Virus record (IMG/VR): IMGVR_UViG_3300045988_059494
Coordinates: 7,219 to 71,218 of that record
DNA from: a virus
Length of the DNA: 64,000 nucleotides
Strand: one strand, 5' to 3'
Under the pieces are notes generated by a model, which had not been told where the DNA came from, did no database searches, and saw only the letters and a program-made list of their open reading frames with translations. Numbering within the stretch: position 1 is the first letter of the stretch; every line of letters starts with the position of its first letter. A program made the translations under genes and the position numbers. Shown here in pieces: positions 322 through 62,223 of this stretch.

Positions 322-918
322 TTAGACAATATCTTCATTTTCTAACTCCAAATCTTCTATGTCATCCTCGTTATCTGTATCATCATAATACACTTGGCAA
401 CAACAATTAGGATGATACGGAGGGAGGATTACCTCATCTACTGGCCACTCACCTGCATATTCAGCGCAGCCGCCATCACAATCTCCGCCACTATTCTCAA
501 CAATAGCAAGTTGACTAAGTGTACCTACTTTATTAAACATAACAGCATTTTTAACAATCTGCGTTTCGTTTCTTAGTAGTTTATCATATTTATCAATTAA
601 ATATGCTTGCATCGCTGTTTTATTAGAATATTCTGATGCTTTATTCCAGTGTTCTGCGATTCTTTCATTCAAGGTTTTATTATCTTTATTATATGTTAAA
701 GATAAAATATCCTTGACTTCAAAATCCTTTGTTCTAGAATAAATTCGTTTTAACTCACCCGAAGTTGTGCTATAAGTTTGAGCAAGGGAGTCATAAAACA
801 ACTGTTGTGTTTTATCTAATAAAGTCTTTGATTGTTCCGGTTTATTACTATATGCAATAACTTGTTGAACAATTTGATTTAGGCTGGATTCTACTCCAGC
901 CTAAATCTTATCATTCAT
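322..918 (-). CDS. MuF/SPP1 gp7-like minor head protein domain; N-terminal extension contains in-frame TAG at codon 6
   Basis: C-terminal PPYHPNCCCQ motif typical of MuF/gp7 family; ORF track 322..801 starts at TTG but the frame stays open upstream to ATG at 916-918 (MNDKI-TAG-AGVESSLNQIV...). Confidence 0.5.
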
Positions 919-943
919 TGAGGCAACTTCTTTCTTGATCTAC

Positions 944-1438
944 TCACGCTTCTTCATGGCACACCTCATGCAAATCAATAATACGTTGATTGCGGCTGCC
1001 GCGCATAGGTAAGGTTAAATCGCGTTCAGCTTGAATATATGGGCCATCAATCAAGAAATCCGCGTTATTAAAGATTTCTCGCATATTTAAGTCTGAGAAG
1101 ATTGCGAGATTTTCATAGGTATTACCTGTCCAAATATAAATCTTAGTATCCGGTAATTCCTTCTTTACTGTTGTTACGATCAATCTAGTAAGGAAAGAGT
1201 TTTCTGGGCAAAGAGGTTCTCCGCCCATAATACAAAGATTTCTATGCACACCATTAGCGCGCAGTCCTTTAATAATGGAGTCGAGAGTTCCTTGAGTGAA
1301 CTCTCTACCTCCACTGAAATCCCATGTTTCTGGATTGTGACATCCTTCACAGCGGAAAGGACAACCTTGGACAAAGAAAGATAAGCACACGCCTGGCGCG
1401 GCTGAAAAGTCATCATAAATAATTCCTGCGTACTGCAT
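944..1438 (-). CDS. nrdG: anaerobic ribonucleotide reductase activating protein (radical SAM)
   Basis: CxxxCxxC-type cluster (FVQGCPFRCEGCHNPETW), 164 aa, directly downstream of NrdD, GGAGG SD. Confidence 0.85.
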   Translation of the reverse strand: MQYAGIIYDDFSAAPGVCLSFFVQGCPFRCEGCHNPETWDFSGGREFTQGTLDSIIKGLRANGVHRNLCIMGGEPLCPENSFLTRLIVTTVKKELPDTKIYIWTGNTYENLAIFSDLNMREIFNNADFLIDGPYIQAERDLTLPMRGSRNQRIIDLHEVCHEEA

Positions 1439-1441
1439 GAG

Positions 1442-3670
1442 TTATTCCTCCAATCGACCTGAATGTTTTACTCTATCATTGGCTTCGGCAACTTTACCCG
1501 CATTAAAGGCAGTTGTATAGTTACCGGTTAGATAGCCTGTAACACGTCGAAGCTGTTGAATATGGTGACTTCCGCAAACTGGGCAGTGATCATTAAACTC
1601 GTCCATATAACCACACTCAAGACAGGTGTCGTTAGGAACGTTAATGGCAAAATACGGAATATCATGTTCCATAGCATAAAGTACCAAAGTTTCTAGAGCG
1701 TCAATGTTATTCTTAACGCCACTATCAAGTTCAACGTAAGTAATGCAACCAGCAGAAGAATAACCTGTCAACTGGCTTTCAATATCAATCTTCTTAAAAG
1801 GTGACATCTTCTTCCATACCGGAACATGAATAGAGTTAGTGAAATAATCTCTATCACTTACGTTTGGAATTGCTCCATACTTATCCTTAAACTTCGTCAT
1901 AGCAGTGTAACAGAGGTTCTCCGCAGGCGTATAATAAACGCCAAAGTTTAACTGATACTGTTGTTTAAAAGTCGCACATCTATCTTGGAAGAGCTGCTCA
2001 ATCTTCTTAGCTAGTTCCATACCCTGCGAAGTAGTATGATCCTGACCAATAAGAATTTGTAGCGTTTCTGCAAGACCTAATTGACCAATAGCAAGAGTAC
2101 CATGCTTTAATGCACTACGGGTTGTCTTGCCATCATAGCCAGCCATTACGCCATTTTCATACATGAACTTCGCGGATTCCGCAGGCTGAGAGCAGATATA
2201 ATCAAATCGTTCTAGAAGCATATCCTTAGCTTCATGAATTTTCTGGTCAAGTAGAGACATAAAACAATCAATGGCGTTTGCGTCAGGGTATGCGGCATTT
2301 GCTGCTTCTTTTGCTTCCATAGCAAGAGTAGGCATGATGATAGTTACAGGGCAGATATTACCTCTACCATCTTTTGTTTGACCCATGCCATTAATATCCC
2401 AACCATTCGCGGTGCGGCAACCCATCGTGCTAAAATAGGTCTTGGGATCATTCGGGTCATATCCTGCGTTACCAGACCAATCAACGTTAGCATAGTTAGG
2501 ATAGAGTCTAGTTGCAGTAGATCTTAGAGCCAGTCTGAACAAATCATAGTTCGGATCACCTGGCTTTTGATTGACACCTTTCATACATTGGAAGATACCA
2601 CATGGGAAGATAGAAGTTTTATGTAGTTTACCGAGTCCCTCAATAGAGACATCAAGTAATGCTTTAATTACCATTCTACCTTCGGGCAAAGTGCAAGTGC
2701 CATAGTTAATAGATGTGAATGGCAGCTGATTACCAGAGCGAGACTGAAGAGTATTAAGATTATGATACATACCTTCTACAGCTTGATGCACTTCTTTAAT
2801 AGTCATATCCAGAGCATATTGATATGCTTTATCATAAATCATATATTCATTATCTTCAATTCCAGCAGTATCTGGGATATGGTCAAACAGCTCTTTATCG
2901 GAGACATTCTCAATATACTTTAAACCTTCAATATAGTGTTTTCTAAAACTCTTTCTCACATAAGGAACCATTGTCCAATCAAGGTGGGTAGCACTTACTC
3001 CACCAAATTGCTGGAGAGATTCAAGCTGGAAAATCACTGCTACCAACTGAAACGCAGTATTCACTGAGCCTGCGGGTCTTACATCAGTTTGTCTAGTGTT
3101 AAATCCATCAGCAAGCAAGTGATCAAAAGGAATAGATAGACAGTTGTGCATACCAACTGCATATGCGGATAAATCATGGATATAAATTTCGTTATTGCGG
3201 TGATTATTGCGAGCCATATCAGATACACAATAATCAAGCGCATATTTCTTCATCTGAAGGTCTGAACTTGCGCCAACACGACCTCCAAACGATAGCTCAT
3301 CAACATTAGCATTTTGTCGTTCAATAGAAGAGCCGCTAACTTTTTCAGAGAATGCTTGAATAAAGTCATCATTACTAGAGCGTACCATTTCTCTCTTATA
3401 TCTATATCTGATATAAGCCTTGGCAACATCTTTTCTTTCAGAGCGCATTAAGAAATTCTCAATCATATCTTGAATTTCTTCAACCGAGATAATATCATCC
3501 GCAGTCTTTACGCTATATTTAATTTCATCGGCAATATCTTTCGCCGTATCTTCTTCATACAGAATGCCATCAACCTCGATAAAAGCCTTGTTGATAGCAT
3601 TTACAATTCTTTGCTTATCAAATGGTACAAGGATACCATTTCTTTTCTTTACTTGTAGCAATAGAAACAC
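1442..3670 (-). CDS. nrdD: anaerobic ribonucleoside-triphosphate reductase
   Basis: N-terminal ATP-cone (KRNGILVPFDKQRI), C-terminal glycyl-radical and Zn-ribbon region (CLECGY...CPVCGS, RRVTGYL); 742 aa. Confidence 0.9.
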   Translation of the reverse strand: MFLLLQVKKRNGILVPFDKQRIVNAINKAFIEVDGILYEEDTAKDIADEIKYSVKTADDIISVEEIQDMIENFLMRSERKDVAKAYIRYRYKREMVRSSNDDFIQAFSEKVSGSSIERQNANVDELSFGGRVGASSDLQMKKYALDYCVSDMARNNHRNNEIYIHDLSAYAVGMHNCLSIPFDHLLADGFNTRQTDVRPAGSVNTAFQLVAVIFQLESLQQFGGVSATHLDWTMVPYVRKSFRKHYIEGLKYIENVSDKELFDHIPDTAGIEDNEYMIYDKAYQYALDMTIKEVHQAVEGMYHNLNTLQSRSGNQLPFTSINYGTCTLPEGRMVIKALLDVSIEGLGKLHKTSIFPCGIFQCMKGVNQKPGDPNYDLFRLALRSTATRLYPNYANVDWSGNAGYDPNDPKTYFSTMGCRTANGWDINGMGQTKDGRGNICPVTIIMPTLAMEAKEAANAAYPDANAIDCFMSLLDQKIHEAKDMLLERFDYICSQPAESAKFMYENGVMAGYDGKTTRSALKHGTLAIGQLGLAETLQILIGQDHTTSQGMELAKKIEQLFQDRCATFKQQYQLNFGVYYTPAENLCYTAMTKFKDKYGAIPNVSDRDYFTNSIHVPVWKKMSPFKKIDIESQLTGYSSAGCITYVELDSGVKNNIDALETLVLYAMEHDIPYFAINVPNDTCLECGYMDEFNDHCPVCGSHHIQQLRRVTGYLTGNYTTAFNAGKVAEANDRVKHSGRLEE

Positions 3671-3725
3671 CCCTTGTATTTATTTTTTAGACGGATACTA
3701 TATTTGGTATTTTTGATAGGCAAAT

Positions 3726-4280: not shown

Positions 4281-5673
4281 TATCTTCTTCCTCTCCTGTT
4301 GCTCGCTCGCTTCTAAGGATAAGCGAACCATCTGCTAATACCTCGTCAATATGATACAACTGATGTCTACCAGAACTTGCATACTTCTTGGTTACAAATT
4401 CATCACCACGACGAATACCCTGTACAACAATCATATTACCGCGATTGAACCAAGATTTCTCAATGACAGTCTTAGTACCATCACTATTTCGGCGGAATGT
4501 CTGTCTATCAAACAGCGAAAAATATTCCTGTCTAAACTTAACAGATACTACGCCAGTCGTTGTCAAGAGATATACAACACTCTTGGTTTTATTCTTTGCA
4601 ATACAAGTTCCGCAAATGCGGTTGAGCTTGTAAATTGGAATAAGAGATGCGCCTTTCTTGAAAGTCTTCTCAATAATCGGTTCCTCAGGAAGAGAAAAGA
4701 AGTTAACTAAACCATACTTAGCAGTATTTACATTACTTAATTCATGGTCGTGATAATAGAAGCAAAGAACTTCCATTTCCCAAGACGAGATGTTGCCACT
4801 AGCATACTTCTCCCAATCTTGCATAAAGATACGAGAGTTCAACTCATCAAGAATACTATCCTTATTCTCTTTAATCCAATCTCTAAAAATATCCATATAA
4901 CTCTGATAAACTTTATCCCAAGCCTTAATATTGATATACCAAGACTCGAGTTCACCATCAAGAAGTCCTTCACAATCAATCTCAGTCAAGAAATTAATCG
5001 CTCTTACATCAAGATGGTATCTCTCATGGTCAAATGGATCTTTACATTCAGCCTTTAAATATCTATTAAACTCAAATACTCGCTTTGGTAAAGCAAAAGT
5101 ATCATTCTTTGGAATTAAATCATAACGAATAAGACCCGGCATATTCTGCAAAGTTAATCGTTTCTTTTTGTCGCAAGTTAGCCACAAATATTCTACCATA
5201 GTCTTCTTGCGGTCTTTGAATTGATCGAACGCACCACCCTTAATAAGAGCAATCATAGCTTGCTTATTAGGAGCTATTCTATAATAGAAATCTATCATAG
5301 ATGCATATGGGCGATTTGCAATAATAGTCTTAATCAAATCGTTATTGACATTTGTTAAACCCTTTAAGCCAAACAAAATCTGATTATTCTCTGTATCGGG
5401 TTTAAAGCCAAGCTCAGAATGGTTAATATCAACAAGAGATACCTTAATACCCTTGTTACGAATTTCGCCAATCGCCTTTGCTAACTTTGTATAATCTGAC
5501 TGCTCGCTCTCATTTTCATCAATAGCACCACTATTAACGATAAGATATGCCGTATTCCAATACACAGGATTGAAATGTGTAGCAAGATAAAGAGTCTGCA
5601 TACCAACGAAGCTATAAGCAAGAGCATGAATAACGGAAAAACTATCGTGTTTACCCACTATTTCTAGTGGCAC
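4267..5673 (-). CDS. dnaE: DNA polymerase III alpha (DnaE) C-terminal portion (downstream half of split gene)
   Basis: Begins inside the conserved DnaE motif (GKHDSFSVIHALAYSFVGMQTLYLATHFNPVYW ~ NKSHsaAYa..YqTaylKahYP); the 6821..9334 ORF ends inside the same motif. Confidence 0.6.
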   Translation of the reverse strand: MPLEIVGKHDSFSVIHALAYSFVGMQTLYLATHFNPVYWNTAYLIVNSGAIDENESEQSDYTKLAKAIGEIRNKGIKVSLVDINHSELGFKPDTENNQILFGLKGLTNVNNDLIKTIIANRPYASMIDFYYRIAPNKQAMIALIKGGAFDQFKDRKKTMVEYLWLTCDKKKRLTLQNMPGLIRYDLIPKNDTFALPKRVFEFNRYLKAECKDPFDHERYHLDVRAINFLTEIDCEGLLDGELESWYINIKAWDKVYQSYMDIFRDWIKENKDSILDELNSRIFMQDWEKYASGNISSWEMEVLCFYYHDHELSNVNTAKYGLVNFFSLPEEPIIEKTFKKGASLIPIYKLNRICGTCIAKNKTKSVVYLLTTTGVVSVKFRQEYFSLFDRQTFRRNSDGTKTVIEKSWFNRGNMIVVQGIRRGDEFVTKKYASSGRHQLYHIDEVLADGSLILRSERATGEEEDNGEN

Positions 5674-6820
5674 AGACTATCTTTTACTATTAGCTTTTAA
5701 CTAATAGGATACCATTTCGGTTTTCAGTTGCTTCGTTTCCTAAAACAACGCTACGTACCAATAGTAGCCCTACTCCCAGTCTAACCCGGGATAGTCGTTA
5801 CAGGTTTCTTAAAGGATAAACAAGGTTATTATCTTTGAATGACTCTCCAATATTTATTCTTCTAACAGTTTCTTTAGAAGAACCATATAAATCAATTATT
5901 TCTTGGTAGGTCATATCAGTATGAAGCAGCGCATCTTTTATCTTGTCTGCCCTTATCGCTCTAACGTCTCTTTTTCGAATGGGATAAGTTGGATATAATC
6001 CTTTTTTTAATGTTCCAGCATTTATTTTCTTTACTGTGGAATATCCCATATCAAGTTGTTTAGCAATTTCTGCTAAAGATAAAGTAGAATTCGTTAGTAG
6101 TTCAATTAATTCGTCATAATCTGAATCATTCTTGTAATATTTATAGAGAGGATAATTTTGATTTTTGTCATAGAAATACAATCCATTATTGATGCTTGAA
6201 ATAAATGAAGCACTAATATTATACTTCTATTCTAACTCATAATAAGGAATACCTTCCTAGATTTCTTTTTTCAAAGAAGCTATTTGATCTTGTGATAAAA
6301 TAGAATTTCTAATTCTACTACCACCGCCAAGATCAGAATTATATCCCTCTCCATCTCCTCTAAAACTATTCTTTTCTTTTATCCAAAACTGTTCTCTTTC
6401 ATTCACAATATTTATATCATCTGTATAAATCTATTCTAAAACTTCAATTTCAAAATTGTCTATACCATATTGACGCATTTTACTGTGAATTAAATCGTTA
6501 TAAGAACTAGATTTAGAGTTTAAAGCACAAGAACGATGTTCTCTTATACGACGTTTTAAATTATTTGTTTGGCCAACATATTTGTGACCATTTATCTTGT
6601 TTGTGTAACAATATATGTAATACATTATATACCTCCATAGCATAATGTATTACCATGTTATCCTTTAAGACTTCCCACGGGATTATCATGGCAACACAGT
6701 TAGGATACTTTTTATATCCTCTATGTTACTTTAGAATTCCCCGTTAGCAATTAACAATTTTTGTCCAAAATTTTTAATTACCCTCGTGGTAAGCGAGTAA
6801 AATATCTAGGGGCAAGCATT
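5660..6820 (-). mobile_element. candidate group I intron (or free-standing HEG insertion) interrupting dnaE, carrying a GIY-YIG ORF
   Basis: ~1.16 kb between DnaE halves. Putative 5' exon ends GGT AAG TAT (GKY) followed by intron G; putative 3' end ...AUAGUG before GGT AAA CAC. A junction GKY|GKHDS would restore the conserved DnaE motif. Confidence 0.35.
5798..6643 (-). CDS. GIY-YIG homing endonuclease with 3 in-frame TAG codons
   Basis: N-terminal YIYCYTNKINGHKYVGQTNNLKRRIREH (GIY-YIG), middle EQFWIKEKNSFRGDGEGYNSDLGGGS, C-terminal HTH region; track ORFs 6431..6643 and 5798..6181 are in frame, separated only by TAGs. Confidence 0.7.
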
Positions 6821-9334
6821 TCACCCCATCTGCGGACCGAGACCAAATTTCCAGACATACTTACCTAGCTTCTCGGATTTCGCCGTATCCAAAACTTTCT
6901 GATGAAGCTCTGGAATTTTATTCATCTGTTTCTTACCAACAATCTTTCTTGCGGCATTCGCTTCAGCCAGACTAAAGTTACAAATATCTGGATCCCGCAA
7001 CATTTTCATTAGCTGCTCCTGAGAAGGAGGCACACCATAAGAAGATAAAAAGTAAGGTTCCAAAGTTTTCTGTTCTTGTTTAGTCAAGCCATTATTGTCC
7101 ATCTCTTTATACCAAAGAGAAATATCATGCTTATAACGAACATACTTTTCCATCGGAGTTTCTGCGCCCGGTTCAGAAGCCATAAGACGCATCAAACCAT
7201 TGGCATCCGCCATCTCTAACGGGTTATGCGGACGAATTTTCTTAGCTGCCTGTGCGCCTACTGCGCTATCAAACTGAAAACAACCAATTACATCATTGTT
7301 AGCCAGAGCGTTCCACATAGCTTCATCATCTTGCGGCAGGATAGATGGATGTAGATACTTATTATAGACCTCTCTAAGAGTTAAGTTTTGCTCAATAACT
7401 TTATCTGCTTGAAGCAGTTCAATGGTCTGAATGATAATATCCTGTACACTTGTTAGCAGGAAGTCATACTTTACGGAACCTGCGGCCTCTTGGTCATGCA
7501 GATCCCACTGTGTAATTAACGCGCCCTTAGGAGTTCGCATAACCGCGGCAGAGTCATAGATGTTTTCATCAAAAAGGATAACGCCAGAAGCGTGACTACT
7601 TCTTTTATTAACCATGCCTTGAATACGAATAATAATATCAAGCAAGCCTTCATACTGCGAAACCGCGGTTACAAATGCTTTAACAGGCTTTCTGCCTTTC
7701 TCTTGATTACCATTTACAACATCTTCAATCGGCCACAGGAAACCGCGCTCTTGAGGAATCAAAGAACTCAAGTATTGTGCTTCATCAACATCAATACCGT
7801 CGGGATATTCCTCAGAACGATAACCTCTACACGCAGTCAAGATTGCAGATTTTGTACCCTCTGTACCGAAAGTGCAAACCTGAATAAGACCAAGTTCTCC
7901 TCTTTCCTTGCGGATTTCGGCAAAAATCTTCTGAATTTTAGACGGCGCCAAGTCAAGATCAATATCGCCTAACTCAACACGTTCATCGTTAATGTAACGC
8001 CAGAAAGGTAAGTCCCACTCGAGGGGATCAAGCTGAGTAATACCAAGGAGATAATGGTTTAAAGCTGCACACGCAGAACCACGACCTGCGCCGACTGTAC
8101 TGCCGCAATTCCAGAACAAATCTACATAGTGCTTCAATGTATTAGGATATGCGAACATACAAGTCTGCAATTTCTCGCCAATGACTCTCTTTACTCTTGC
8201 TTCTTCTTCGAGTCTTTCCCAATACTCTTTCTTGTGGATAAGACCTTTCTCCTGCATTGCAATGATGCACTCCTGAATCCAATATTTCTCTTGCTCGTTA
8301 TCAGATTCAATCAAGGAAGTTAGTACCTTATAATCATCACGGAAAGTATCCATCATATCCGCGGGAACGCGAGACCAGTCGCTGCAATTATAATGAGTTA
8401 CTGCTACTTCTGGGACAGACTGATGCTTCTCAAGAGAATAAAACTCAATCTTATCCTTGATCTCATTAGAATTGTCATAGATAGAGTAAACTGTATCTAA
8501 GTCAAAGCTAGACAAAAGTAAATCAGTTGTCTCTTGTTCAGTCATAAGATATGTGAATTCATAGAATGAATCAACTTCTCGCTCACCACCCTTAGAATTA
8601 AGATAAGACTTGTGAACATATCTATCTTCTTTAGTTAGATAATGAGCATCCGTACCAACGCACATCTTTACATCAAATACTTGGGCAATTTTGAGCATTC
8701 TCTTGTTTGCAGTAACCTGATCACTGTTGCTTGCAGGAGCACACTCAACATAGAAGTTATCCTTGCCAAAAACGCTAATACAAAATTCCATAAAGTCAAT
8801 AATCTGTCTATGGTAACGATACGCATTATCAGTATCATTAGCTTTTTCGCAAGCATCGAGGTTAAGAATAGAATTACCTAATTCACCACCAATACACGCA
8901 GTCGTGCCGATAATGTCTCCCTTAAATCTCTGCATAACTTCCTGTAATTCTGATTTCAAAAGCGGGACTCGTTCCATACCACGATCATAGTAACTATTAG
9001 TCCACGCAATAGAAGACAGCTCTTTAAGACCTCTGTATCCATGCTCATTCTTTGCAAGCAAAATAAAATGATAATACTTTTGTCCCATATCTCGAGTATC
9101 GGTAAGATAAATCTCATTACCCAATGCTACAGTAAACTCAGGATGAGTTTCCTGAAGTTTCTTTGCATACTTATTTACTCGCATATGTGAACTTAAGGAT
9201 TCGTGATCTGTGATGGCAATACCAGTCAAACCAAGCTCAATAGCCTTATCAATTAGCTCTTCTGGATGATTGATACAATCGAGAAGGCGCAAATTACTAT
9301 ACTCAGTATGAGCATGGTTGTTAAAATAACTCAT
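6821..9334 (-). CDS. dnaE: DNA polymerase III alpha (DnaE) N-terminal portion: PHP domain plus polymerase core
   Basis: N-terminal PHP motif HAHTEYSNLRLLD...GIAITDHESL; 837 aa; ends within the conserved GKYGFNKSH-like motif. Confidence 0.8.
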   Translation of the reverse strand: MSYFNNHAHTEYSNLRLLDCINHPEELIDKAIELGLTGIAITDHESLSSHMRVNKYAKKLQETHPEFTVALGNEIYLTDTRDMGQKYYHFILLAKNEHGYRGLKELSSIAWTNSYYDRGMERVPLLKSELQEVMQRFKGDIIGTTACIGGELGNSILNLDACEKANDTDNAYRYHRQIIDFMEFCISVFGKDNFYVECAPASNSDQVTANKRMLKIAQVFDVKMCVGTDAHYLTKEDRYVHKSYLNSKGGEREVDSFYEFTYLMTEQETTDLLLSSFDLDTVYSIYDNSNEIKDKIEFYSLEKHQSVPEVAVTHYNCSDWSRVPADMMDTFRDDYKVLTSLIESDNEQEKYWIQECIIAMQEKGLIHKKEYWERLEEEARVKRVIGEKLQTCMFAYPNTLKHYVDLFWNCGSTVGAGRGSACAALNHYLLGITQLDPLEWDLPFWRYINDERVELGDIDLDLAPSKIQKIFAEIRKERGELGLIQVCTFGTEGTKSAILTACRGYRSEEYPDGIDVDEAQYLSSLIPQERGFLWPIEDVVNGNQEKGRKPVKAFVTAVSQYEGLLDIIIRIQGMVNKRSSHASGVILFDENIYDSAAVMRTPKGALITQWDLHDQEAAGSVKYDFLLTSVQDIIIQTIELLQADKVIEQNLTLREVYNKYLHPSILPQDDEAMWNALANNDVIGCFQFDSAVGAQAAKKIRPHNPLEMADANGLMRLMASEPGAETPMEKYVRYKHDISLWYKEMDNNGLTKQEQKTLEPYFLSSYGVPPSQEQLMKMLRDPDICNFSLAEANAARKIVGKKQMNKIPELHQKVLDTAKSEKLGKYVWKFGLGPQMG

Positions 9335-9396: not shown

Positions 9397-10558
9397 TCAA
9401 TCTTTCAACACCAAAGTTAATTTCTGCGCCGCACGAGTACAAGCTGTGTAAAGCCACCGAGCATGATCTGCTTGTCTTAATACTTCCTCGACTACTAATA
9501 CCTTATCATACTCGCTACCTTGGGATTTATGAGTCGTGATACAATAGCCATAGTCAAATTGCTCCGGTCGCAACTGCTTAGGAAACAGTCGAAAGTTTTC
9601 TCGATTTACTGTTGTTTCTTTGGTGGTAATAAGTTTCCAATCCATCAAGAGGTCATGAAATGTCTGATCTCTCTTATCAGCATTATCAATCGTCTCAGGG
9701 GTAAAATCAATTAAACACATAGGATTAAGCCACTTATTTGGGACGGTAGCAATCTTATCAATAGTACCAATAGTGCCATTGACGAGAGCGTCTCCAGTCT
9801 CAGTAATCTTATCCCAGTTGTTTTTAAGACAAATAACTTTATCTCCAACAATAGGATTAGGAATGTCTTCACCATAGCGCATATTGCGGTAATAATTATT
9901 TAATGTATGACGAGTAATATTTTTCCCGCAAAGAATCTGATCTGCCCATGTAAACATACCGTCACACATCTCTCTATGACGCACAATATTGATTTCAGTG
10001 CCTTTATAAGGCTTGATAAGTTTACCTTCTCGAATATCTGCGGACAGACGAATAATCTCGCTTTCTGCAGCCTGGCGCATAATTTCATCGAGGAAGATGT
10101 GCGGACGTTCAAGAATGCCATTTTCTTCGCCAATAGGCGGTAACTGACCGGGATCGCCGCAAGCAATTACATAAATGCCATGCGACAGCAGCAAATTCCA
10201 CATAGGCTTAGGTAGCATAGATACCTCGTCAACTACGATAATATCATAATCAGAAATATTATCTTTAGGGATATGAATAAAGCTGCCATCTGCGCGCGGA
10301 ACAGATTTATACAAGAGTCTATGTGCAGTCATAGCAGTGGGACAACCCTTATTTCTTAGTACCTGTGCAGCTTTGCCGGTATAAGCGATATATCCAACTC
10401 TTTCGGGATCAATATCGAGAGCGGAGATAATAAACTTGATAAGAGTAGATTTACCTGTTCCTGCTTTCAGGCGTAGCCAGCGATCACGGTATAATTTTCG
10501 TTTGCGTGATATCTGGCTACAGCAATTTTCAAACCCTCTTCTTGTTTTTTAGTTAATT
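9397..10558 (-). CDS. RecD/Dda-like superfamily 1 helicase; needs -1 frameshift or ~8 nt hop at GCC TGA just before Walker A
   Basis: ATG at 10556-10558 gives MELTKKQEEGLKIAVARYHANENYTVIAGYA then TGA. The Walker A (AGTGKSTLIKF) and the rest of the helicase (track ORF 9397..10332) are in the -1 frame, with no start codon of their own. Confidence 0.55.
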
Positions 10559-11088
10559 CCATCGGGTTTTACTTCCTCCTTTTCTTTTAAATTTAATTCA
10601 TCTATTGTCCACATATTATCATGCAATTCTTTATGACAATTAGAACATAATAATATACATTTTTTACTTTCTTCAACTGCTTCTTGCAACTTAAAGTGGT
10701 CATTACTTATAGTAAAATCCTTTTGTGATGGGTCTAAATGATGAAATTCTAATGCTTTTAGGCATTTACTATAGCCGCATCTTACACATTGACCTCCGCG
10801 TTGCTATTTTATTTTAGACAGAAAGGCCCCTCTTGTTAGCTAAATTCCTTCTGACATACAGTCATAACAACAACTTCTCTAATTAGCCGCAGCACTTTTA
10901 GGGGTGAAAGTTTTTCCACATATAGGGCATTTTTTTTCTTTCAGACCCGAGGCTCCTGTAATTTTTCTCTCTTGATTACGTTGCTTTCTAGCTTGATACA
11001 TACAAGCATCACTACAATATTTTTTTGTGGATTTTATAGCTTCAAACTCTTTTCCACAAACTGTGCATATATTTGTCATAAAAATCAT
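10549..11088 (-). CDS. HNH homing endonuclease with 3 in-frame TAG codons
   Basis: C-terminal CGYSKCLKALEFHHLDPSQKDF...LLCSNCHKELH (HNH); track ORF 10879..11088 ends at TAG and the frame continues; paralog of 53357..53896 with a TAG at the aligned position. Confidence 0.65.
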
Positions 11089-11558: not shown

Positions 11559-13142
11559 TTAAAAGAAATACTCTTGACGATTTATGATTTCATAGTTCTG
11601 AATAATTAGCTGTGGTGTCACGCTATTGAAATACTTGTTTACCTCCGCCTTGCCAACGAGATTAATTGTAACACAACCATTCTCGCTAAACAAACTTTCT
11701 AGTTCTTCTTCGCTAGACTTAAACTTGATACAGGTTACTCCATTAGATAACTGTATCTTTAAAGTGGGATTTCGATCTCTAGACATTAAGGTAATCATAT
11801 CTTTAGTGATAGATAAATGTTCTACCGCGATAAGCGGCTCATCTACATTCTGTCCCCAAAGATTCTTCATATTACCCAGCTCTAAGATTTCTTTAGGTCT
11901 AATATCATTGGCTGAATGAATAAAGTCTACCTTGTAGCTAGGTGAGAACTCAATATCTTTAAGAGTTGTATCTGCGTACTCAACAAAAGCATCAAAATTT
12001 TCATCTAAGATACCAAAGCCAAACGCATTAGGATGTCCTTCCGCGAGATAGATTAAACCGCTGTCTCGGCAGAAACCTCTAAAATCATTGAGTTTAGATT
12101 TCTCATATCCTCGTGCAGAGCCACTCCAAGCCTTTTTACCATCTTCATCTACTTCAACAAGTAGAGCAACAGGACGTTGGTATTCTGCCATTAACTTGTT
12201 GGCAATTAGACCGGTAATACCTCTATCAAAAGATGGATGTTCTAACTTAACAAGTAAGATTTTATGATCTAAAAGATTATTTTCTTTGATAATACTTTTA
12301 ACCTGTTCAACTGCGGCATCTTGGTTCCTAGTCTGGCGGTTTTTAACATTAGTGCAAGTCCGCAAACTTTGGTCTAATCTTGTCTCTTGCTGGCCAGCGC
12401 ATCCTCGTTTAGTAGAGGGCACCAGATCAAAGGCTTTCCAATTCAACATAGATTCGAATAATAAAGTCTTTTCTTCTAACGTGCCTACTCGCGTAATCGA
12501 GTTAATTAAAGGAACAATGTAGAACGCTACGCCTATTGGAGTGGGATTGTCACCTAATTGATAATGGTTTTTTTCTGCCATACCCTTGATAAAAGGATTT
12601 TGAAGCTGACTTAAACCAGTTTGAACAAGATAATGGGTTTCAAAATCTCGCAAATCCATCATATCTCCAACAAGACCAACTGCAACCATATCTAAGAACT
12701 GATCTGCCTTTTGTTCACTGGTTGGAAGTAAAGAATCAATAAACTGGCATAACTTATACACAACACCAACACCAGATAATGACTTAGTTGGATAATCACA
12801 TAACTGATTATTTACAATACACGCATATTCAGAAATCTTTTCTGCTTGGTGGTGATCCAGTACAAGAACTTCAACTCCTTTATTATGCAACATCTTATGA
12901 ATATCATAATCATTTGAACTCGAGTCTGGAGCAATTACCAGTGTTGTTTCTGGTGGAATAAGAGCTGGATTAATTCCGTGCATTTTGCCATTATGGAAAC
13001 TATAAGAGATATGCTCAATAGCAGATGGAATAATTGCATGAATGTAATTCAATAGTAAGGCTGCTGAAGTATAGCCATCGCAATCACTATCTACTTGCAC
13101 ATGAATATGGAAACCATCTTTATGTAACTGGTTAAACAGCAT
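11559..13142 (-). CDS. RecJ-like DHH-family single-strand DNA exonuclease
   Basis: DHH motifs HVQVDSDCDGYTSAA, DHH-like HHQ, GGGH-like region; 527 aa. Confidence 0.65.
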   Translation of the reverse strand: MLFNQLHKDGFHIHVQVDSDCDGYTSAALLLNYIHAIIPSAIEHISYSFHNGKMHGINPALIPPETTLVIAPDSSSNDYDIHKMLHNKGVEVLVLDHHQAEKISEYACIVNNQLCDYPTKSLSGVGVVYKLCQFIDSLLPTSEQKADQFLDMVAVGLVGDMMDLRDFETHYLVQTGLSQLQNPFIKGMAEKNHYQLGDNPTPIGVAFYIVPLINSITRVGTLEEKTLLFESMLNWKAFDLVPSTKRGCAGQQETRLDQSLRTCTNVKNRQTRNQDAAVEQVKSIIKENNLLDHKILLVKLEHPSFDRGITGLIANKLMAEYQRPVALLVEVDEDGKKAWSGSARGYEKSKLNDFRGFCRDSGLIYLAEGHPNAFGFGILDENFDAFVEYADTTLKDIEFSPSYKVDFIHSANDIRPKEILELGNMKNLWGQNVDEPLIAVEHLSITKDMITLMSRDRNPTLKIQLSNGVTCIKFKSSEEELESLFSENGCVTINLVGKAEVNKYFNSVTPQLIIQNYEIINRQEYFF

Positions 13143-49384: not shown

Positions 49385-49486
49385 TTATTCTTGCTTACAT
49401 GGCTCTCTGAAGTAGCCACAGCCGCACTACTTTACCCACGGAGCATTTGCGTGTCCGCACTTTGGACAGATCCAACCTGTCTACAT
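49385..49486 (-). CDS. zinc-ribbon minigene with TAG at codons 2 and 20
   Basis: SD GAGGTGA; M-TAG-TGWICPKCGHANAPWVK-TAG-CGCGYFREPCKQE-TAA. Paralog of 49756..49911, where the aligned codons are CAA and CAG. Confidence 0.5.
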
Positions 49487-51816: not shown

Positions 51817-53391
51817 TTAGTGAATCTGCGCGTAGCGCTCACTGTCCAGCTTCTCAAGAACAAGAGCAAGTCCGTCCTTGCCGCTCAGAATCTGCTGGAT
51901 CATAACAGGGCTGAAACCACTTACGTAGCTAAAGCCGTCCCCAATCGCGGGAATGTTGTTATTACGCGCGTTCAGGTTCCAAAAGACACAACTCGGCATC
52001 TTGTAGCCACACCGCGCCCACTTAGCCTTCATGTCTTCAAACAGAGTGTTGATCCGCTGCATTTCCATGCCACGACCCCAGCCGCCAGTAACATGGTTAC
52101 TCGTTACACAGCGATCAAATTCCATATCAGAAAAGATATATACACGCTCAGGCATATCTTCTGCACGAACAGACTGCTTCATAGCGGTCGCAAGCAGCAT
52201 ATCGAAAACAGCTTCGATATTAGTATTCGCACCCCAATCCGCACTCACGCAGCGGCACAGCTTATCCGTAATGTCTGCACCCTCGAACTTTACCAGCTTC
52301 GGAGAGCCAGAAAAAGTAATGAAGTGGTTAGCAAACGGACCGTGCGCCTTATCTGCAATGTATGCGCCCATAGAAACAGCCGCTTCCATAGGAACACCAG
52401 ACATAGAGCCAGAAACATCGACAACTGCGATGCCGTTCTCTACATTGTCGCCATAGAAATTGGGCAGATTATCCCAATACTTCTGGAGCATTAGACGCTC
52501 AGAGTCTTCCAGACTCTTACGGCGAGAGCTGAAGGCACGATGAGCAATGTCATGCGGATACAGCGCACCAGCGTTAACGGTAGTTTCAGTATCCTTAGCA
52601 AAAGCCTCATACTTTGCCTTAATCATATCGCGACGCGCAAATGCGTTACGATAGATAATACCTGCACGAGAAGGAATTTTATCAAACTCAATCTCGTCCC
52701 AACGGTTTTCAGACATAAGGCGTTCGACAATGCGGATGCGCTCGCGCAGTACAGACAAGGTCTTGCGGTACTCCTTCGGAGTCATATGGAAATGATTACG
52801 AGAGATCGTCGCCAGACGACGCGACTCCTTAGAAGAAGTGTTCTCAGACTTCAGCCACTTAGCAAGAAGCGACGGAGTTTTACAAGAAACATCGAGCGCA
52901 AGCTGATGTCTCATAATCTTGAAAGCCTCATCTTCCAGAGGAGTGTCGACAAAGACGTAGAAATCATCCCAACGACCATACTCGGGCACGAACTTCAGGT
53001 TACGGCGCATTGCTGCGGTTTCATTGAAGGCAAGCCAACGAGAAACCACGCGGAAGAAACGACGTTCTCCCTGTCCACCACGCACATCGCGCAGATAAAA
53101 CAGACACTTCAGTGCATGAGCCTCGTCCTCATCAAAAGCAGCCTTGAACAGAGTGATGCAATCTGCATCGGTGCGCTGACGATAAGCGCCTCCAAGCGCA
53201 AAAAGATCCATAAGTCCATTTAGCGTAGACTTATGAGTAATAGCGCCATTCTCAGTCAGAGTGAAGTTAGTGTCCTGCTTCATAGCGTTCATAAAAGTAT
53301 TCATTGTATCAATCTCCTTTTGATTTTTAGTCGCTCCCTTGGACAAGGGAGATAGTTTATTGATAATGTTCTTCTGCGTGACAATTTGCAC
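51817..53391 (-). CDS. CobT-like protein with C-terminal vWA domain (MIDAS DVSGSMSG)
   Basis: vWA motif AVVDVSGSMSG; 524 aa; partner of the MoxR-like ATPase. Confidence 0.5.
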   Translation of the reverse strand: MQIVTQKNIINKLSPLSKGATKNQKEIDTMNTFMNAMKQDTNFTLTENGAITHKSTLNGLMDLFALGGAYRQRTDADCITLFKAAFDEDEAHALKCLFYLRDVRGGQGERRFFRVVSRWLAFNETAAMRRNLKFVPEYGRWDDFYVFVDTPLEDEAFKIMRHQLALDVSCKTPSLLAKWLKSENTSSKESRRLATISRNHFHMTPKEYRKTLSVLRERIRIVERLMSENRWDEIEFDKIPSRAGIIYRNAFARRDMIKAKYEAFAKDTETTVNAGALYPHDIAHRAFSSRRKSLEDSERLMLQKYWDNLPNFYGDNVENGIAVVDVSGSMSGVPMEAAVSMGAYIADKAHGPFANHFITFSGSPKLVKFEGADITDKLCRCVSADWGANTNIEAVFDMLLATAMKQSVRAEDMPERVYIFSDMEFDRCVTSNHVTGGWGRGMEMQRINTLFEDMKAKWARCGYKMPSCVFWNLNARNNNIPAIGDGFSYVSGFSPVMIQQILSGKDGLALVLEKLDSERYAQIH

Positions 53392-53896
53392 ATAGTAATA
53401 AACATTTATCTACTTCTTCATAAAGTTTATCTATATTGTCGAGTGTTACTCCAATTTCGGCTATACCGAAATCTTTTTGGGTTGGGTCAAGATGGTGAAA
53501 TTGTAAAGCTCCTTCGCATTTATCATAACCACAACGCTCACATTTTCCGCCTTTATAAAGAATTAGCTAGTGTTTGATGGCTTTTTGACGAGCCTTACCG
53601 CTATCTTGGCTTGGAGAGCAATCATAACAATAAATGCGATTATTGACTTTTGTTTTATATTTCTTCCCACAAATCGGGCATATCTTCTCAATCTCTTCTT
53701 GAGCAATATTGGGATTAGTACATTTACCACACGACTAAGTGGGCCTGCTACTTGTTAAACTTGAACCTCTAATTTCCTTTTCAGTTCCACAGTCACATCT
53801 GCATTTCCAATAGGTCTTACCATTGCGGTTTGGCGCTCTTTCAATAACGACTAACTTACCAAAACGCATACCAGTTAAATCTCTTAAATTTGGCAT
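53357..53896 (-). CDS. HNH homing endonuclease with 2 in-frame TAG codons (paralog of 10549..11088)
   Basis: SD GGGAGG; CERCGYDKCEGALQFHHLDPTQKDF...LLCANCHAEEH; the TAG in KAIKH-TAG-LILYKGGKCERCGY aligns with the TAG in SKIK-TAG-QRGGQCVRCGY of the paralog. Confidence 0.65.
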
Positions 53897-57508: not shown

Positions 57509-58021
57509 TTATTTGAAGATAGCTGTTTCATCTTCTAAATTAACTGTAGCGCCAACTTTGGCGTTCAGTACATCTGTAATCGCTTTTTGCGTCATGGTAC
57601 CATCGGTATTTTCTCCACTGCCAGAGTAAAGTTTCATAACACCTGCGGTTTCCGCGGACGCTACGGGAAGCGAACCCGGTCCAATACCAACAAACTCAAC
57701 ACCATTATAATAATATAAAGCATTTGAATTATTGGCATCAATATAAATTTTATTTTCATTAGGAGTGATTTCTTGAGTGCCATCAACATCTTTGAAAATC
57801 TTTTCACCAATGAAATAAGCGCGTTGGAAGATAGTATTCTCATACTCAAGACTTCCATAAGTTGACACGCCATCGCCAACAATCACGCAAAGGCCTTGCT
57901 TAGCAGTATCTACTAAACAAATTTCGCCCTTTTCGGGAATAAAACTATCCTTTACCTTCTCGTAATTGTAATCATTATCACGGCGCATCTTTAAGACAAT
58001 CTAAATTGTTTTAACAGCCAT
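57509..58021 (-). CDS. fibre-like structural protein with in-frame TAG at codon 7
   Basis: SD AGGAGGTTAAGGCATATG; MAVKTI-TAG-IVLKMRRDNDYNYEKVKD...; track ORF 57509..57988 is the post-TAG part. Confidence 0.45.
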
Positions 58022-58026: not shown

Positions 58027-58242
58027 TTAACCTCCTATTGTTATAGGAGCGCCGCCGGCGTCCAAAATGATTGTATCAGTATCCTCAATCGCGGGAGAAG
58101 TGATCTATACTCGAGTACTGTTATCAGTATCCAAGAAAATCAGACGATTACCCTCATCTGTCGTGAAAATCAACTAGCCCTCTTTAATCGGGATGCTATC
58201 GAGATTGGCAAAAGAACCTTTAAGAACTACTAAATCAGCCAT
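58027..58242 (-). CDS. fibre-motif minigene with 2 in-frame TAG codons
   Basis: SD GAGGAGGGATTTATAAGAATG; MADLVVLKGSFANLDSIPIKEG-TAG-LIFTTDEGNRLIFLDTDNSTRV-TAG-ITSPAIEDTDTIILDAGGAPITIGG. Confidence 0.4.
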
Positions 58243-61042: not shown

Positions 61043-61044
61043 AA

Positions 61045-61120
61045 TGGCTGGGATGGTGAGACTCGAACTCACGAATTCCGGGGTCAAAGCCCGTTGCCTT
61101 ACCGCTTGGCGACACCCCAA
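61045..61120 (-). tRNA. tRNA-Gln(UUG)
   Basis: Acceptor TGGGGTG/CATCCCA (one G-U), D-stem GCC/GGC, anticodon loop CUUUGAC, G73, CCA. Confidence 0.55.
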
Positions 61121-61322
61121 TATTTACAAGACGCTAACGGGCATAACCAATTCCTTTTCGTCCTTTTGTCGGTTCCCCATATGCTCACTGTCCAAAAGAA
61201 CTAGGTTTCTTAAGACCGTGGTCTTAAAACCATAAATATCTCTTATATTTATTCAAATTAGTAGCACAAAAGTTTGCTGATATAGCGTCTTAATCCACGA
61301 TTTGTGGTTGACCTTGCCGGCC

Positions 61323-61360
61323 TATATAAATATTATATCATAATATTTATTATTTTTCAA
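61323..61360 (-). promoter_or_regulatory. palindromic promoter variant upstream of the tRNA unit
   Basis: cctatataaatattatatcataatatttattattttt; near-identical to the 54561 and 62419 copies. Confidence 0.5.
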
Positions 61361-61599
61361 ATCAAGACCCACGGAAACTCAAGCTAATTACTCCATATCT
61401 CCCACTTGTTTCCGTCTTAAAGAGATATATCATAGTCTGGAGGTAATACACTTACCAATAAACATTCTTGTATTCAAGTAAATAGAAGAATTTGCTGTAT
61501 GGGTCTTTTCCATAACATAGGAAAGGAGTGATACATAACCCCATTTAATGGGGAAGTGGCCGTAACTATAAGGGATAACCTTATCTAAGCTCTGGCAAG

Positions 61600-62223
61600 T
61601 TACGAGGTTTCACCGTATTTCCATTTGTATCCATAAGCAGTTTTTCGTTTGCCATTGCATACAGCAGCTATATGCCCTGAATGTTGTTTGCCCAAACGAT
61701 CATAAGCAGCTTTAATTGAAGGGAAAATATTCAAAATTTGATTGGTATTTTTATCTATCTGTATAACAGGCTTAATAATACCTAAACGACTTTTAATACT
61801 TCGCTCTTCTTTGGAAATACCATATTGATTTAACACCTTTGAACAAGTGTCCGTAGAATAATTCAAAATTTTTGCAACTTCTTTAATATTTAATCCTTCT
61901 TTATATAAAGAATATATTAAATCATAGTCACAATATCTCTTTCCATCGCCGCCAAGGGTTGCATTATATCCATTCTTGAAAGAACGTTTTTGTTCAATCC
62001 AATAAACTTCTCGTTCTTCTGGATTATCCGTTTCTTCAATTAGCTCAATATGGAAATGTTCAACCCCATATTTCCGCATAGCAGAATATAATGGACGCTT
62101 TTCGTTACGCTCTTTGAAAGCATCTCGACAATGTTCCTTAAAGCGTTTCTCGATAGAGAATTCAGTTTTACCGACATAAATTTTACCATTTATGTCATTA
62201 GTGATCTAATAGATGTATGCCAT
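61600..62223 (-). CDS. GIY-YIG homing endonuclease with in-frame TAG at codon 6
   Basis: SD AAAGGAG; MAYIY-TAG-ITNDINGKIYVGKTEFSIEKRFKEHCRDA...RKYGVEHFHIELIEE...YWIEQKRSFKNGYNATLGG; track ORF 61600..62079 is the post-TAG part from an internal Met. Confidence 0.65.

What the first reader, a model, noticed from the sequence alone, without database searches (positions are those of the whole stretch)
322..62223. Recurrent TAG placed at codons 2-7 of recoded genes suggests translational gating
In several recoded genes the first TAG is within the first seven codons: MNDKI-TAG (MuF-like, 916), MAVKTI-TAG (fibre-like, 58019), MAYIY-TAG (GIY-YIG, 62221), M-TAG (minigene, 49484). An early amber codon would abort translation after a few residues unless a suppressor is present. 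This gives a simple switch that keeps selfish endonucleases and late structural proteins silent early in infection.
Basis: inference. Interest (0 to 1): 0.65.

Follow-up and report, generated by a model that had tools for sequence, protein, structure and literature searches.

The report
Early amber codons in recoded phage
This phage reads the TAG stop codon as glutamine, and four of its genes do carry a TAG within their first seven codons, but across the phage family TAG positions are spread almost evenly along genes, so the early placement looks like chance rather than a purpose-built switch.

Summary
The window is part of a ~144-kb gut-type phage that uses TAG as a sense codon (Gln). The matching suppressor tRNA(CUA) lies about 2.2 kb beyond the window's right end in every 94-98% identical relative examined.

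All four cited early TAGs are real and lie inside coding sequence. This is supported by Shine-Dalgarno sites, orthologue N-termini, a Pfam GIY-YIG match starting at residue 1, and a paralogue of the 33-codon Zn-ribbon gene.

The "recurrence" is weak:
- In the window, 4 of 15 recoded genes have a first TAG at codons 2-7, against 1.45 expected (P=0.04, with the threshold chosen after the fact).
- In 76 recoded genes of the same phage family that are not represented in the window, the count is 4 against 8.8 expected.
- The 220 unique TAG sites are nearly uniform along genes.
- Early sites are no better conserved than later ones. Fibre-like TAG7 is Glu in relatives, and "MuF-like" TAG6 is Leu.

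What does stand out is which genes carry TAG. Six homing-endonuclease genes hold 25 of 39 TAGs, a roughly 20-fold enrichment.

Suppressor-dependent delay of endonuclease and late genes is already a published hypothesis (Borges et al.). Verdict: a new member of a known kind, with no support for gating that depends on position.

The parts
61600..62223 (-). GIY-YIG homing endonuclease gene (207 codons). Its single TAG is at codon 6 (62206-62208), inside the YIY-q-ITN motif.
   Evidence: SD -11.2. Pfam GIY-YIG covers residues 1-87, plus NUMOD1. TAG6 is kept in 4 of 5 homologues; one has K.
57509..58021 (-). TAG at codon 7 (58001-58003).
   Evidence: SD -11.4, with no SD for the downstream ATG 57988. 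Orthologues start MAIKTFEVVFKLRRD, with Glu opposite the TAG; 3 of 8 carry the TAG. Relatives instead have a TAG at codon ~83, where the window has Gln. No Pfam or PHROG hit.
49385..49486 (-). 33-codon RanBP2-like Zn-ribbon gene, MqTGWICPKCGHANAPWVKqCGCGYFREPCKQE. TAG at codons 2 (49481-49483) and 20 (49427-49429). An intrinsic terminator follows at 49350-49381.
   Evidence: Sequence and SD GAGGTGA. Paralogue 49756-49911 aligns from residue 1 with Q opposite both TAGs, E=2e-13. Conserved with both TAGs in contig 055134. Weak Pfam Zn_ribbon_RanBP hit.
322..957 (-). TAG at codon 6 (940-942) and codon 19 (901-903).
   Evidence: SD GAGGTG -9.4 for ATG 957, against -4.6 for ATG 918. In 11 relatives TAG19 is invariant, while TAG6 is TTG (Leu) in the more distant ones. 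No Pfam Phage_Mu_F hit and no PHROG hit.
5798..6625 (-). Intron-encoded GIY-YIG endonuclease gene with TAG at codons 65, 123 and 133.
5646..6822 (-). 1,177-nt insertion in dnaE that can be excised precisely and looks like a group I intron. It carries the GIY-YIG gene above.
   Evidence: Absent from the 97%-identical contig 055134. P1 GGGGU/GCCCC with a U.G pair, and a terminal G. The spliced ORF is 1,296 aa, 98.6% identical and gap-free to the uninterrupted DnaE. Rfam finds no match.
10549..11079 (-). HNH endonuclease gene with TAG at codons 67, 80 and 92. It sits in an insertion block (10465-11178) that is absent from the close relative.
20188..21099 (-). Gene for a protein with a transmembrane segment, a coiled coil and a C-terminal GIY-YIG domain. 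It has 13 in-frame TAGs spread over codons 35-277.
43750..44499 (-). GIY-YIG endonuclease gene with TAG at codons 33, 138 and 176. Its SD and AUG are sequestered in a 24-bp hairpin (44491-44514 / 44542-44565).
53357..53896 (-). HNH endonuclease gene with TAG at codons 54 and 110.
62453..63313 (-). Lysin-like gene (phosphodiester glycosidase plus SPOR domains) with TAG at codons 32, 35 and 214.
11559..13307 (-). RecJ-like DHH exonuclease gene with a single TAG at codon 18 (13254-13256).
   Evidence: SD -12.3. Pfam DHH, DHHA1 and RecJ_OB.
19245..20188 (-). Two adjacent genes: phrog_6721 homologue 19245-19883 (TAG at codon 34) and orf100 19886-20188 (TAG at codon 22).
58027..58242 (-). 71-codon gene upstream of the 'fibre-like' gene, with TAG at codons 23 and 46.
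   Evidence: SD -15.0.
49756..49911 (-). 51-codon Zn-ribbon paralogue with TAG at codon 27.

Best explanation
The window comes from a large phage that has reassigned the amber codon. TAG is read as glutamine by a phage-encoded suppressor tRNA(CUA), and TAA and TGA remain the only terminators.

In-frame TAGs are rare overall (39 in 15 genes) and are nearly absent from the replication and nucleotide-metabolism genes that fill the window. They are concentrated in homing-endonuclease genes and occur in a few other genes: a lysin-like gene, small Zn-ribbon genes, and genes of unknown function. Any such TAG makes the full-length protein dependent on the suppressor tRNA out-competing host RF1. That dependence could delay or reduce expression of these genes (inferred; this is a published hypothesis).

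The four TAGs at codons 2-7 are ordinary members of this population. They arose by single-base changes from Gln, Glu or Leu codons at poorly constrained N-terminal positions. They are the lower tail of an essentially uniform positional distribution, not a designed 5' gate.

Shown: the recoding, the Gln assignment, the gene starts, the positional statistics, and the enrichment in endonuclease genes. Inferred: the presence of the suppressor in the window's own genome, and any temporal regulation.
For: Recoding:
- No convincing gene ends in TAG.
- Reading through TAG raises crude coding density from 84.5% to 89.8%.
- A 313-codon ORF has 13 TAGs and no TAA or TGA.

Suppressor tRNA:
- A 91-nt tRNA(CUA) lies about 2.2 kb beyond the window's right end in the 96-98% identical contig 055134 and about 2.4-2.6 kb beyond it in two metagenome contigs. 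It is also present in nine more distant relatives.
- It scores 53.6 bits against Rfam tRNA.
- It is homologous to the 88-nt Sup-CTA of phage phAss-1.

Gln assignment:
- The residue opposite TAG in orthologues is Q at 47 sites; the next most frequent is E at 10.
- Q lies opposite both TAGs in the Zn-ribbon paralogue.

Positions:
- 220 unique TAG sites fall in quintile bins of 56/49/41/41/33.
- 9 sites lie at or before codon 7, against 9.6 expected.
- In clusters without a window member, 4 genes have a first TAG at or before codon 7 against 8.8 expected, and the sites fit a uniform distribution (KS p=0.14).
- Tail-fibre-region genes of the close relative carry TAGs throughout their length.

Lability:
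- Fibre-like TAG7 is Glu in 5 of 8 orthologues, and MuF-like TAG6 is Leu in 6 of 9.
- Mean conservation is 0.50 for sites at or before codon 7 and 0.40-0.56 for later sites.

Gene class:
- Endonuclease genes carry 25 TAGs in 1,389 codons, against 13 in 15,356 codons elsewhere. The odds ratio is 21.6, P=1e-18.
Against: - Within the window the excess at codons 2-7 is nominally significant (P=0.042).
- The first TAG lies within 35 codons in 12 of 15 genes, against 6.3 expected (P=0.0008, post hoc).
- Non-endonuclease TAGs in the window are skewed toward the 5' end (KS p=0.009).
- The family-wide histogram declines mildly from 5' to 3' (KS p=0.03). A weak preference for 5' positions, for example to reduce wasted synthesis, is therefore not excluded.
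- The GIY-YIG TAG6 and the 'MuF-like' TAG19 are conserved among the homologues sampled.
- Only about 64 kb of the window's own genome plus parts of relatives were analysed.
- Gene starts in relatives were called by a home-made SD and codon-score routine.
- The family sites share ancestry, so the tests are not phylogenetically corrected.
Confidence: 0.75

Rival explanations
1. TAG is deliberately placed at codons 2-7, so that without suppressor tRNA ribosomes abort after a few residues. This would give a cheap on/off switch that keeps endonucleases and late proteins silent early in infection.
For: Four real cases occur in 15 recoded genes, against 1.45 expected. A suppressor tRNA is encoded by the phage lineage. 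The GIY-YIG TAG6 is kept in 4 of 5 homologues. The M-TAG start-stop arrangement is conserved in the one relative available.
Against: There is no excess in independent genes of the family: 4 against 8.8 expected. There is none family-wide either: 9 against 9.6. Five of six endonuclease genes have their first TAG at codon 33-67. Early sites are replaced by Glu or Leu codons in relatives, while other TAGs appear elsewhere in the same genes. The threshold of 7 was chosen after seeing the data. Any internal TAG gates equally well.
Confidence: 0.1
2. A weak cost-minimising bias. Because suppression competes with RF1, TAGs near the 5' end waste less synthesis and yield harmless short peptides. They would therefore be slightly better tolerated, giving a mild 5' skew without any switch function.
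For: The family-wide quintile counts are 56/49/41/41/33, KS p=0.03. The window shows a 5' skew in its non-endonuclease genes.
Against: The skew is not significant in clusters independent of the window (KS p=0.14, mean relative position 0.466). It could also come from relaxed constraint at N-termini, or from occasional over-extended start calls.
Confidence: 0.12
3. Annotation artefact or pseudogenes. Either the early TAGs lie upstream of the true start codons, or the TAG-laden endonuclease genes are decaying pseudogenes under the standard code.
For: Many other 'early' TAGs in TAA/TGA-delimited ORFs do lie upstream of the SD-supported starts. Homing-endonuclease genes are known to degenerate.
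Against: Orthologue or paralogue N-termini and a domain match from residue 1 cover all four sites. The endonuclease ORFs are interrupted only by TAG (25 times), never by TAA, TGA or a frameshift, over 1,389 codons. A cognate suppressor tRNA is present in the lineage. Two of the endonuclease insertions are presence/absence polymorphisms against a 97%-identical genome, so they were recently mobile.
Confidence: 0.03

Closest known systems
Stop-codon-recoded (genetic code 15, TAG to Gln) gut phages and the 'recoding regulates late and lytic genes' hypothesis (Borges et al., bioRxiv 10.1101/2021.08.26.457843; Peters et al., PMC9523058)
   Same: In-frame TAG is read as Gln through a phage suppressor tRNA(CUA). 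TAG is depleted from early and replication genes and present in lysis-type genes. Borges et al. explicitly propose that in-frame stops keep a group I intron homing endonuclease in an early gene untranslated until late. The intron-borne, TAG-containing GIY-YIG gene in dnaE is the same arrangement.
   Different: Their endonuclease example is in TGA-recoded 'Agate' phages. Here six endonuclease genes (GIY-YIG and HNH, intron-borne and free-standing) hold 64% of the TAGs in a TAG-recoded phage. No positional (codon 2-7) effect is claimed in that work, and none is supported here.
phAss-1 / proposed Phassvirus group (Babkin et al. 2023, PMC10607447; GenBank OQ749652)
   Same: A ~136-kb gut phage using code 15, with an array of 36 tRNAs that includes Sup-CTA genes. 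One of these is an 88-nt long-arm form homologous to the 91-nt suppressor found here. Modules for NrdD/NrdG, DnaE, RecJ, topoisomerase and NAD salvage are syntenic.
   Different: Only 19 of 74 window proteins have a hit, at 26-49% identity, and there is no nucleotide-level match. The window therefore represents a distinct lineage.
T4-type translational control of homing endonucleases such as I-TevI, segB and mobE (Edgell, Gibb & Belfort 2010, PMC2988022)
   Same: Endonuclease genes embedded in early transcription units are kept untranslated until late. Here the SD and AUG of the GIY-YIG gene at 44499 sit in a 24-bp hairpin, and endonuclease initiation regions are more base-paired than those of other genes.
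   Different: In T4 the block is an RBS-sequestering hairpin that is relieved by late promoters, not a suppressible stop codon. Late promoters inside the hairpins were not identified here.
Amber-suppressor-gated expression circuits in synthetic biology (for example the suppressor-tRNA feed-forward 'leak dampener', PMC7969014)
   Same: An amber codon placed early in a coding sequence makes expression conditional on a suppressor tRNA.
   Different: Those are engineered systems. No evidence here shows that natural selection chose the early position.

Membership tests
Code-15 (TAG to Gln) recoded phage | In-frame TAG codons inside otherwise intact, homology-supported genes | tested here: met
   15 genes carry 39 TAGs. 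Pfam and PHROG domains span the TAG positions.
Code-15 (TAG to Gln) recoded phage | TAG is not used as a terminator | tested here: met
   All TAG-terminated standard-code ORFs are fragments of read-through ORFs. TAG shows no pile-up near the 3' ends of code-15 ORFs; the last decile holds 19 of 220 sites.
Code-15 (TAG to Gln) recoded phage | Phage-encoded suppressor tRNA with a CUA anticodon | tested here: inconclusive
   None of the 12 tRNAs in the window has this anticodon. It is present about 2.2 kb beyond the window's right end in the 96-98% identical contig 055134, about 2.4-2.6 kb beyond it in two metagenome contigs, and in nine further relatives. The window's own source contig was not found.
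Code-15 (TAG to Gln) recoded phage | TAG aligns with Gln in homologues | tested here: met
   Q is the commonest aligned residue, at 47 sites against 10 for E. The paralogue has Q at both TAGs. The fibre-like orthologues swap TAG and Q.
Code-15 (TAG to Gln) recoded phage | Recoded codons preferentially in late or lysis genes (Borges model) | tested here: inconclusive
   The lysin-like gene has 3 TAGs and most replication genes have none. However, the RecJ-like gene, NrdD in relatives, and two genes in the replication module do carry TAG. Timing is unknown.
   Window: 4 against 1.45 expected, P=0.042, post hoc. Family: 9 against 9.6. Independent clusters: 4 against 8.8.
   Conservation is 0.50 for early sites and 0.40-0.56 for later ones. 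TAG7 corresponds to Glu and TAG6 to Leu in relatives.
   This needs time-resolved ribosome profiling, proteomics or tRNA quantification.
Group I intron carrying a homing endonuclease (dnaE insertion 5646-6822) | Precise excision restores the host ORF; U at the 5' splice site pairs with G of an internal guide; terminal G | tested here: met
   The spliced ORF is 1,296 aa, 98.6% identical and gap-free to the uninterrupted allele. P1 GGGGU/GCCCC and the terminal G were read from sequence.
Group I intron carrying a homing endonuclease (dnaE insertion 5646-6822) | Recognisable catalytic core (P3-P9), or a match to Rfam Intron_gpI | tested here: not met
   No Rfam match even at E<=1. The core was not modelled by hand.
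Phage Mu F / SPP1 gp7 head-morphogenesis family (the label given to gene 322-957) | Match to Pfam Phage_Mu_F or to a PHROG head-morphogenesis family | tested here: not met
   No such hit at E<=0.01 in Pfam or E<=0.001 in PHROGs. Only the short PPYHPNCCC motif resembles the family (sequence inspection).
T4-type RBS-sequestering control of homing endonucleases | A stable hairpin includes the SD and/or AUG of the endonuclease gene | tested here: met
   A 24-bp hairpin covers the SD and AUG of the gene at 44499, and a 12-bp perfect hairpin covers the AUG at 6625. Endonuclease genes against other genes give Mann-Whitney p=0.002.
T4-type RBS-sequestering control of homing endonucleases | A late promoter placed so that late transcripts lack the inhibitory arm | not tested
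   The promoter type of this phage is unknown. No transcript data are available.

The most novel reading that the evidence does not exclude
Amber recoding in this lineage has been co-opted mainly as a brake on selfish homing endonucleases. TAG density is about 20-fold higher in six endonuclease genes, which also tend to have sequestered ribosome-binding sites. Suppressor-tRNA availability and RNA structure would then jointly restrict endonuclease synthesis to a late, low-level window. 5'-proximal TAGs such as the GIY-YIG codon 6 and the M-TAG start-stop would be the cheapest form of this brake.
Probability: 0.2. Interest if true: 0.5.

Novelty: new member of a known kind. Interest (0 to 1): 0.27.

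Why it matters
If early amber codons were a selected gate, they would be a minimal natural riboregulator-free switch, and a design rule for predicting phage gene timing from sequence alone. The evidence here argues against that. Annotators and modellers should therefore not read regulatory meaning into the position of a recoded stop.

Two things are useful in practice:
- The window must be annotated with translation table 15. Otherwise 15 genes, including all six homing-endonuclease genes and a lysin-like gene, are truncated or split.
- TAG load marks the mobile endonuclease genes. This supports the published idea that recoding restrains selfish or toxic genes and extends it from one case to six.

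Tried and rejected
- **Nucleotide search.** Megablast of both halves of the window against 50,697 GenBank phages gave no match.
- **Source contig.** An exact 40-mer search hit IMG/VR contig 055134 and three metagenome contigs. All are only 94-98% identical, so the true source was not found, and an early assumption of identity had to be corrected.
- **Suppressor in the window.** None was found. The two tRNA-like genes with abnormal anticodon loops do not carry CUA.
- **Ser, Leu or Tyr decoding.** The suppressor's long extra arm and G73 suggested this possibility. It was rejected because Q dominates the aligned residues.
- **Context after TAG.** The base following TAG shows no purine or other bias compared with Gln codons.
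- **Conservation.** A test of whether early TAGs are better conserved than later ones was negative.
- **Rfam.** Searches of the dnaE insertion found nothing, and searches of the suppressor region found only tRNAs.
- **Hairpin at 'MuF-like' TAG19.** It was considered as a read-through stimulator. This was not pursued, because the stem includes the TAG itself and would be melted by a ribosome decoding it. In relatives it is kept only through G.U-forming synonymous changes.
- **Other hits of the tail-fibre query.** Hits in ~40-kb contigs share only a C-terminal domain and were left out of the statistics.

Full report
**What the window is.** Nearly all genes lie on the minus strand and have strong AGGAGG-type Shine-Dalgarno (SD) sites. 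There are 12 tRNA genes between 53.9 and 63.7 kb. The window has no nucleotide-level match among GenBank phages. It is 96-98% identical to IMG/VR contig IMGVR_UViG_3300045988_055134 (144,564 bp, with overlapping ends) and to a few metagenome contigs, but identical to none of them. The DNA polymerase III alpha protein is about 40% identical to those of Enterococcus and SPbeta-like Bacillus phages. The published code-15 gut phage phAss-1 shares 19 of 74 proteins at 26-49% identity, in synteny.

**Recoding is real.**
- With TAA and TGA as the only stops, crude coding density rises from 84.5% to 89.8%. Every TAG-terminated standard-code ORF is a fragment of a longer read-through ORF.
- One 313-codon ORF holds 13 TAGs and no TAA or TGA.
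- My curation gives 39 in-frame TAGs in 15 genes.
- No tRNA in the window has a CUA anticodon.
- A 91-nt tRNA(CUA) sits about 2.2 kb beyond the window's right end in contig 055134 and about 2.4-2.6 kb beyond it in two metagenome contigs. It is also present in nine more distant relatives. It scores 53.6 bits against Rfam tRNA and is homologous to an 88-nt Sup-CTA of phAss-1.
- The amino acid is Gln. Opposite 220 unique TAG sites, orthologues most often have Q (47 sites; next is E with 10). A Zn-ribbon paralogue has Q opposite both TAGs of the minigene.

**The four cited sites.** All are at the stated coordinates, and all lie within coding sequence.
- GIY-YIG gene (start 62223). SD dG is -11.2. 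The Pfam GIY-YIG domain aligns from residue 1, so MAYIY-TAG-ITN is part of the catalytic motif. The TAG is kept in 4 of 5 homologues.
- 'Fibre-like' gene (start 58021). SD dG is -11.4, and the downstream ATG has no SD. Orthologues start MAIKTFEVVFKLRRD, with Glu at position 7. They carry a different TAG at codon ~83, where the window has Gln.
- M-TAG 'minigene' (start 49486). It is a 33-codon RanBP2-like Zn-ribbon ORF with an SD and a terminator. It aligns from residue 1 with the 51-aa paralogue at 49756-49911 (E=2e-13) and is conserved in 055134.
- 'MuF-like' gene. The better start is ATG 957 (SD GAGGTG; conserved in relatives; third-position substitution bias). This makes the cited TAG codon 19. 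That TAG is invariant in 11 relatives. A second TAG (942-940) becomes codon 6, and it is TTG (Leu) in the more distant relatives.
- Neither 'MuF-like' nor 'fibre-like' is supported by Pfam or PHROGs.
- Many other apparent early TAGs in TAA/TGA-delimited ORFs lie upstream of the real, SD-supported starts and are not in genes.

**Is the early placement more than chance?**
- In the window, 4 of 15 recoded genes have their first TAG at codons 2-7, against 1.45 expected under uniform placement (P=0.042). The threshold was chosen after seeing the data.
- A broader 5' skew exists in the window: the first TAG is at or before codon 35 in 12 of 15 genes (P=0.0008, also post hoc).
- To replicate this, I called genes under code 15 in about 50 related loci, clustered the orthologues, and counted each aligned TAG column once.
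- The 220 unique sites fall in quintile bins of 56/49/41/41/33 (KS p=0.03). Nine lie at or before codon 7, against 9.6 expected.
- In clusters with no window member, which form an independent sample, 4 of 76 genes have a first TAG at or before codon 7 against 8.8 expected. Their sites fit a uniform distribution (KS p=0.14).
- Early sites are no better conserved than later ones.
- Tail-fibre-region genes of the close relative carry TAGs along their whole length.
A weak 5' preference cannot be excluded.

**What does stand out.** TAG load depends on gene class, not on position. Six homing-endonuclease genes (four GIY-YIG, two HNH) hold 25 TAGs in 1,389 codons, against 13 in 15,356 codons for all other called genes (odds ratio 21.6, P=1e-18). 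These genes are interrupted only by TAG, never by TAA, TGA or frameshifts, so they are not decaying pseudogenes. Two of them are presence/absence polymorphisms relative to the 97%-identical contig, so they were recently mobile. One sits in a 1,177-nt insertion in dnaE. Removing that insertion at a U|G...G| junction restores a 1,296-aa DnaE that is 98.6% identical and gap-free to the uninterrupted allele. This is the signature of a group I intron, although Rfam does not detect one.

**Mechanism.**
- Established knowledge: an in-frame amber codon yields full-length protein only when a suppressor tRNA out-competes RF1.
- Inference: genes carrying TAG are expressed less, or later, than TAG-free genes.
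- Borges et al. proposed this for late and lysis genes, and specifically for a group I intron endonuclease in an early gene.
- The window fits that picture for endonucleases and the lysin-like gene. TAGs in RecJ-like and neighbouring replication-module genes show the rule is not strict.
- An early TAG gates no better than an internal one; it only wastes less synthesis.
- Endonuclease translation-initiation regions are also unusually base-paired. One example is a 24-bp hairpin over the SD and AUG at 44499. Endonuclease genes against other genes give Mann-Whitney p=0.002. This is the classical T4 route to late endonuclease translation. A second, position-independent layer of control is therefore plausible.

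**Verdict.** The sequence observation is correct. The statistical 'recurrence' is marginal and does not replicate. The position-specific gating interpretation is not supported. The general suppressor-dependence idea is already known. I classify this as a new member of a known kind (a code-15 phage lineage distantly related to phAss-1) with modest interest. The most useful result is the strong concentration of TAG in mobile endonuclease genes.

**Caveats.**
- The window's own genome could be sampled only over 64 kb.
- Gene starts in relatives come from a simple SD-plus-codon-score routine.
- Related genomes share ancestry, so the tests are not phylogenetically corrected.
- Expression timing is untested.

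Noticed in passing
window 5646-6822 (minus strand): dnaE is interrupted by a 1,177-nt element carrying a TAG-containing GIY-YIG gene. Splicing at GGGGU|G...CACG|A restores a 1,296-aa DnaE that is 98.6% identical and gap-free to the uninterrupted allele in contig 055134. It looks like a group I intron (P1 with a U.G pair, terminal G), but Rfam finds nothing even at E<=1.
   Followed up: partly
window 10465-11178 (minus strand): The block containing the HNH endonuclease is absent from the 97%-identical contig 055134. It is flanked by two diverged copies of the first ~25-31 codons of the target gene (MELTRKQEEGLKIAV... at 11271 and MELTKKQEEGLKIAV... at 10562). This is as expected if homing carried donor flanking sequence along.
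   Followed up: partly
window 44491-44565; also 6617-6653, 53896 and 63313 start regions: The SD and AUG of the GIY-YIG gene at 44499 are sequestered in a 24-bp hairpin whose 5' arm contains an anti-SD (ACCTCCTA). The AUG of the intron GIY-YIG gene lies in a 12-bp perfect hairpin. Endonuclease initiation regions are more paired than those of other genes (p=0.002), and the lysin-like gene is the most paired of 77. This resembles T4 I-TevI and mobE control.
   Followed up: partly
window 866-917: A 13-bp perfect hairpin (23-nt arms at 83% complementarity; dG -22.6 kcal/mol) lies inside the 'MuF-like' coding region. It encloses the internal ATG (918-916) and the conserved TAG (903-901). In more distant relatives the 3' arm carries synonymous C-to-T changes that keep G.U pairs. 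Its function is unknown.
   Followed up: partly
window 59553-59626 (minus strand); L001 1456-1529, just beyond the window's right end: Two tRNA-like genes have abnormal anticodon loops. One has an 8-nt loop that ARAGORN reads as the four-base anticodon UAAA (Rfam tRNA 31 bits); it is conserved in at least six relatives. The other has a 6-nt loop. They could be frameshift-suppressor-like tRNAs or decayed tRNAs.
   Followed up: no
L032 15993-16083 (contig 055134, about 2.2 kb beyond window position 64000): The suppressor tRNA(CUA) is 91 nt long with a ~21-nt extra arm, a U1 mismatch with position 72, and G73. This is an unusual architecture for a tRNA that evidently inserts Gln. An 88-nt homologue exists in phAss-1 (OQ749652 62445-62532). 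How it is charged is unclear.
   Followed up: partly
relatives L003, L005-L007, L009, L011, L033 (for example L003 12089-12434); compare window 63543-63619: Most relatives encode a phage tmRNA (tag peptide DNNYFDSHMAA or a close variant) next to tRNA-Arg(tct). The window and contig 055134 lack it; in the window, tRNA-Arg and tRNA-Ser(aga) are separated by only a 77-nt spacer.
   Followed up: no
window 27905-27913 (minus strand): Three consecutive TAG codons lie 11 codons before the TAA of a small membrane-protein ORF (27869-28120). They could be a Gln triplet, or a residual or conditional terminator. No orthologues were available to decide.
   Followed up: no
window 20188-21099 (minus strand): An unusual protein has an N-terminal transmembrane segment, a ~190-residue Gln/Glu-rich coiled coil, and a C-terminal GIY-YIG nuclease domain with no recognisable DNA-binding domain. 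At 13 TAGs, its gene is the most TAG-dense in the window. The predicted start has no SD.
   Followed up: no
window 37650-41874 (minus strand): An NAD-salvage cluster is conserved in synteny with phAss-1. Its products match phAss-1's nicotinamide phosphoribosyltransferase, ribose-phosphate pyrophosphokinase and nicotinamidase genes at 34-45% identity.
   Followed up: partly
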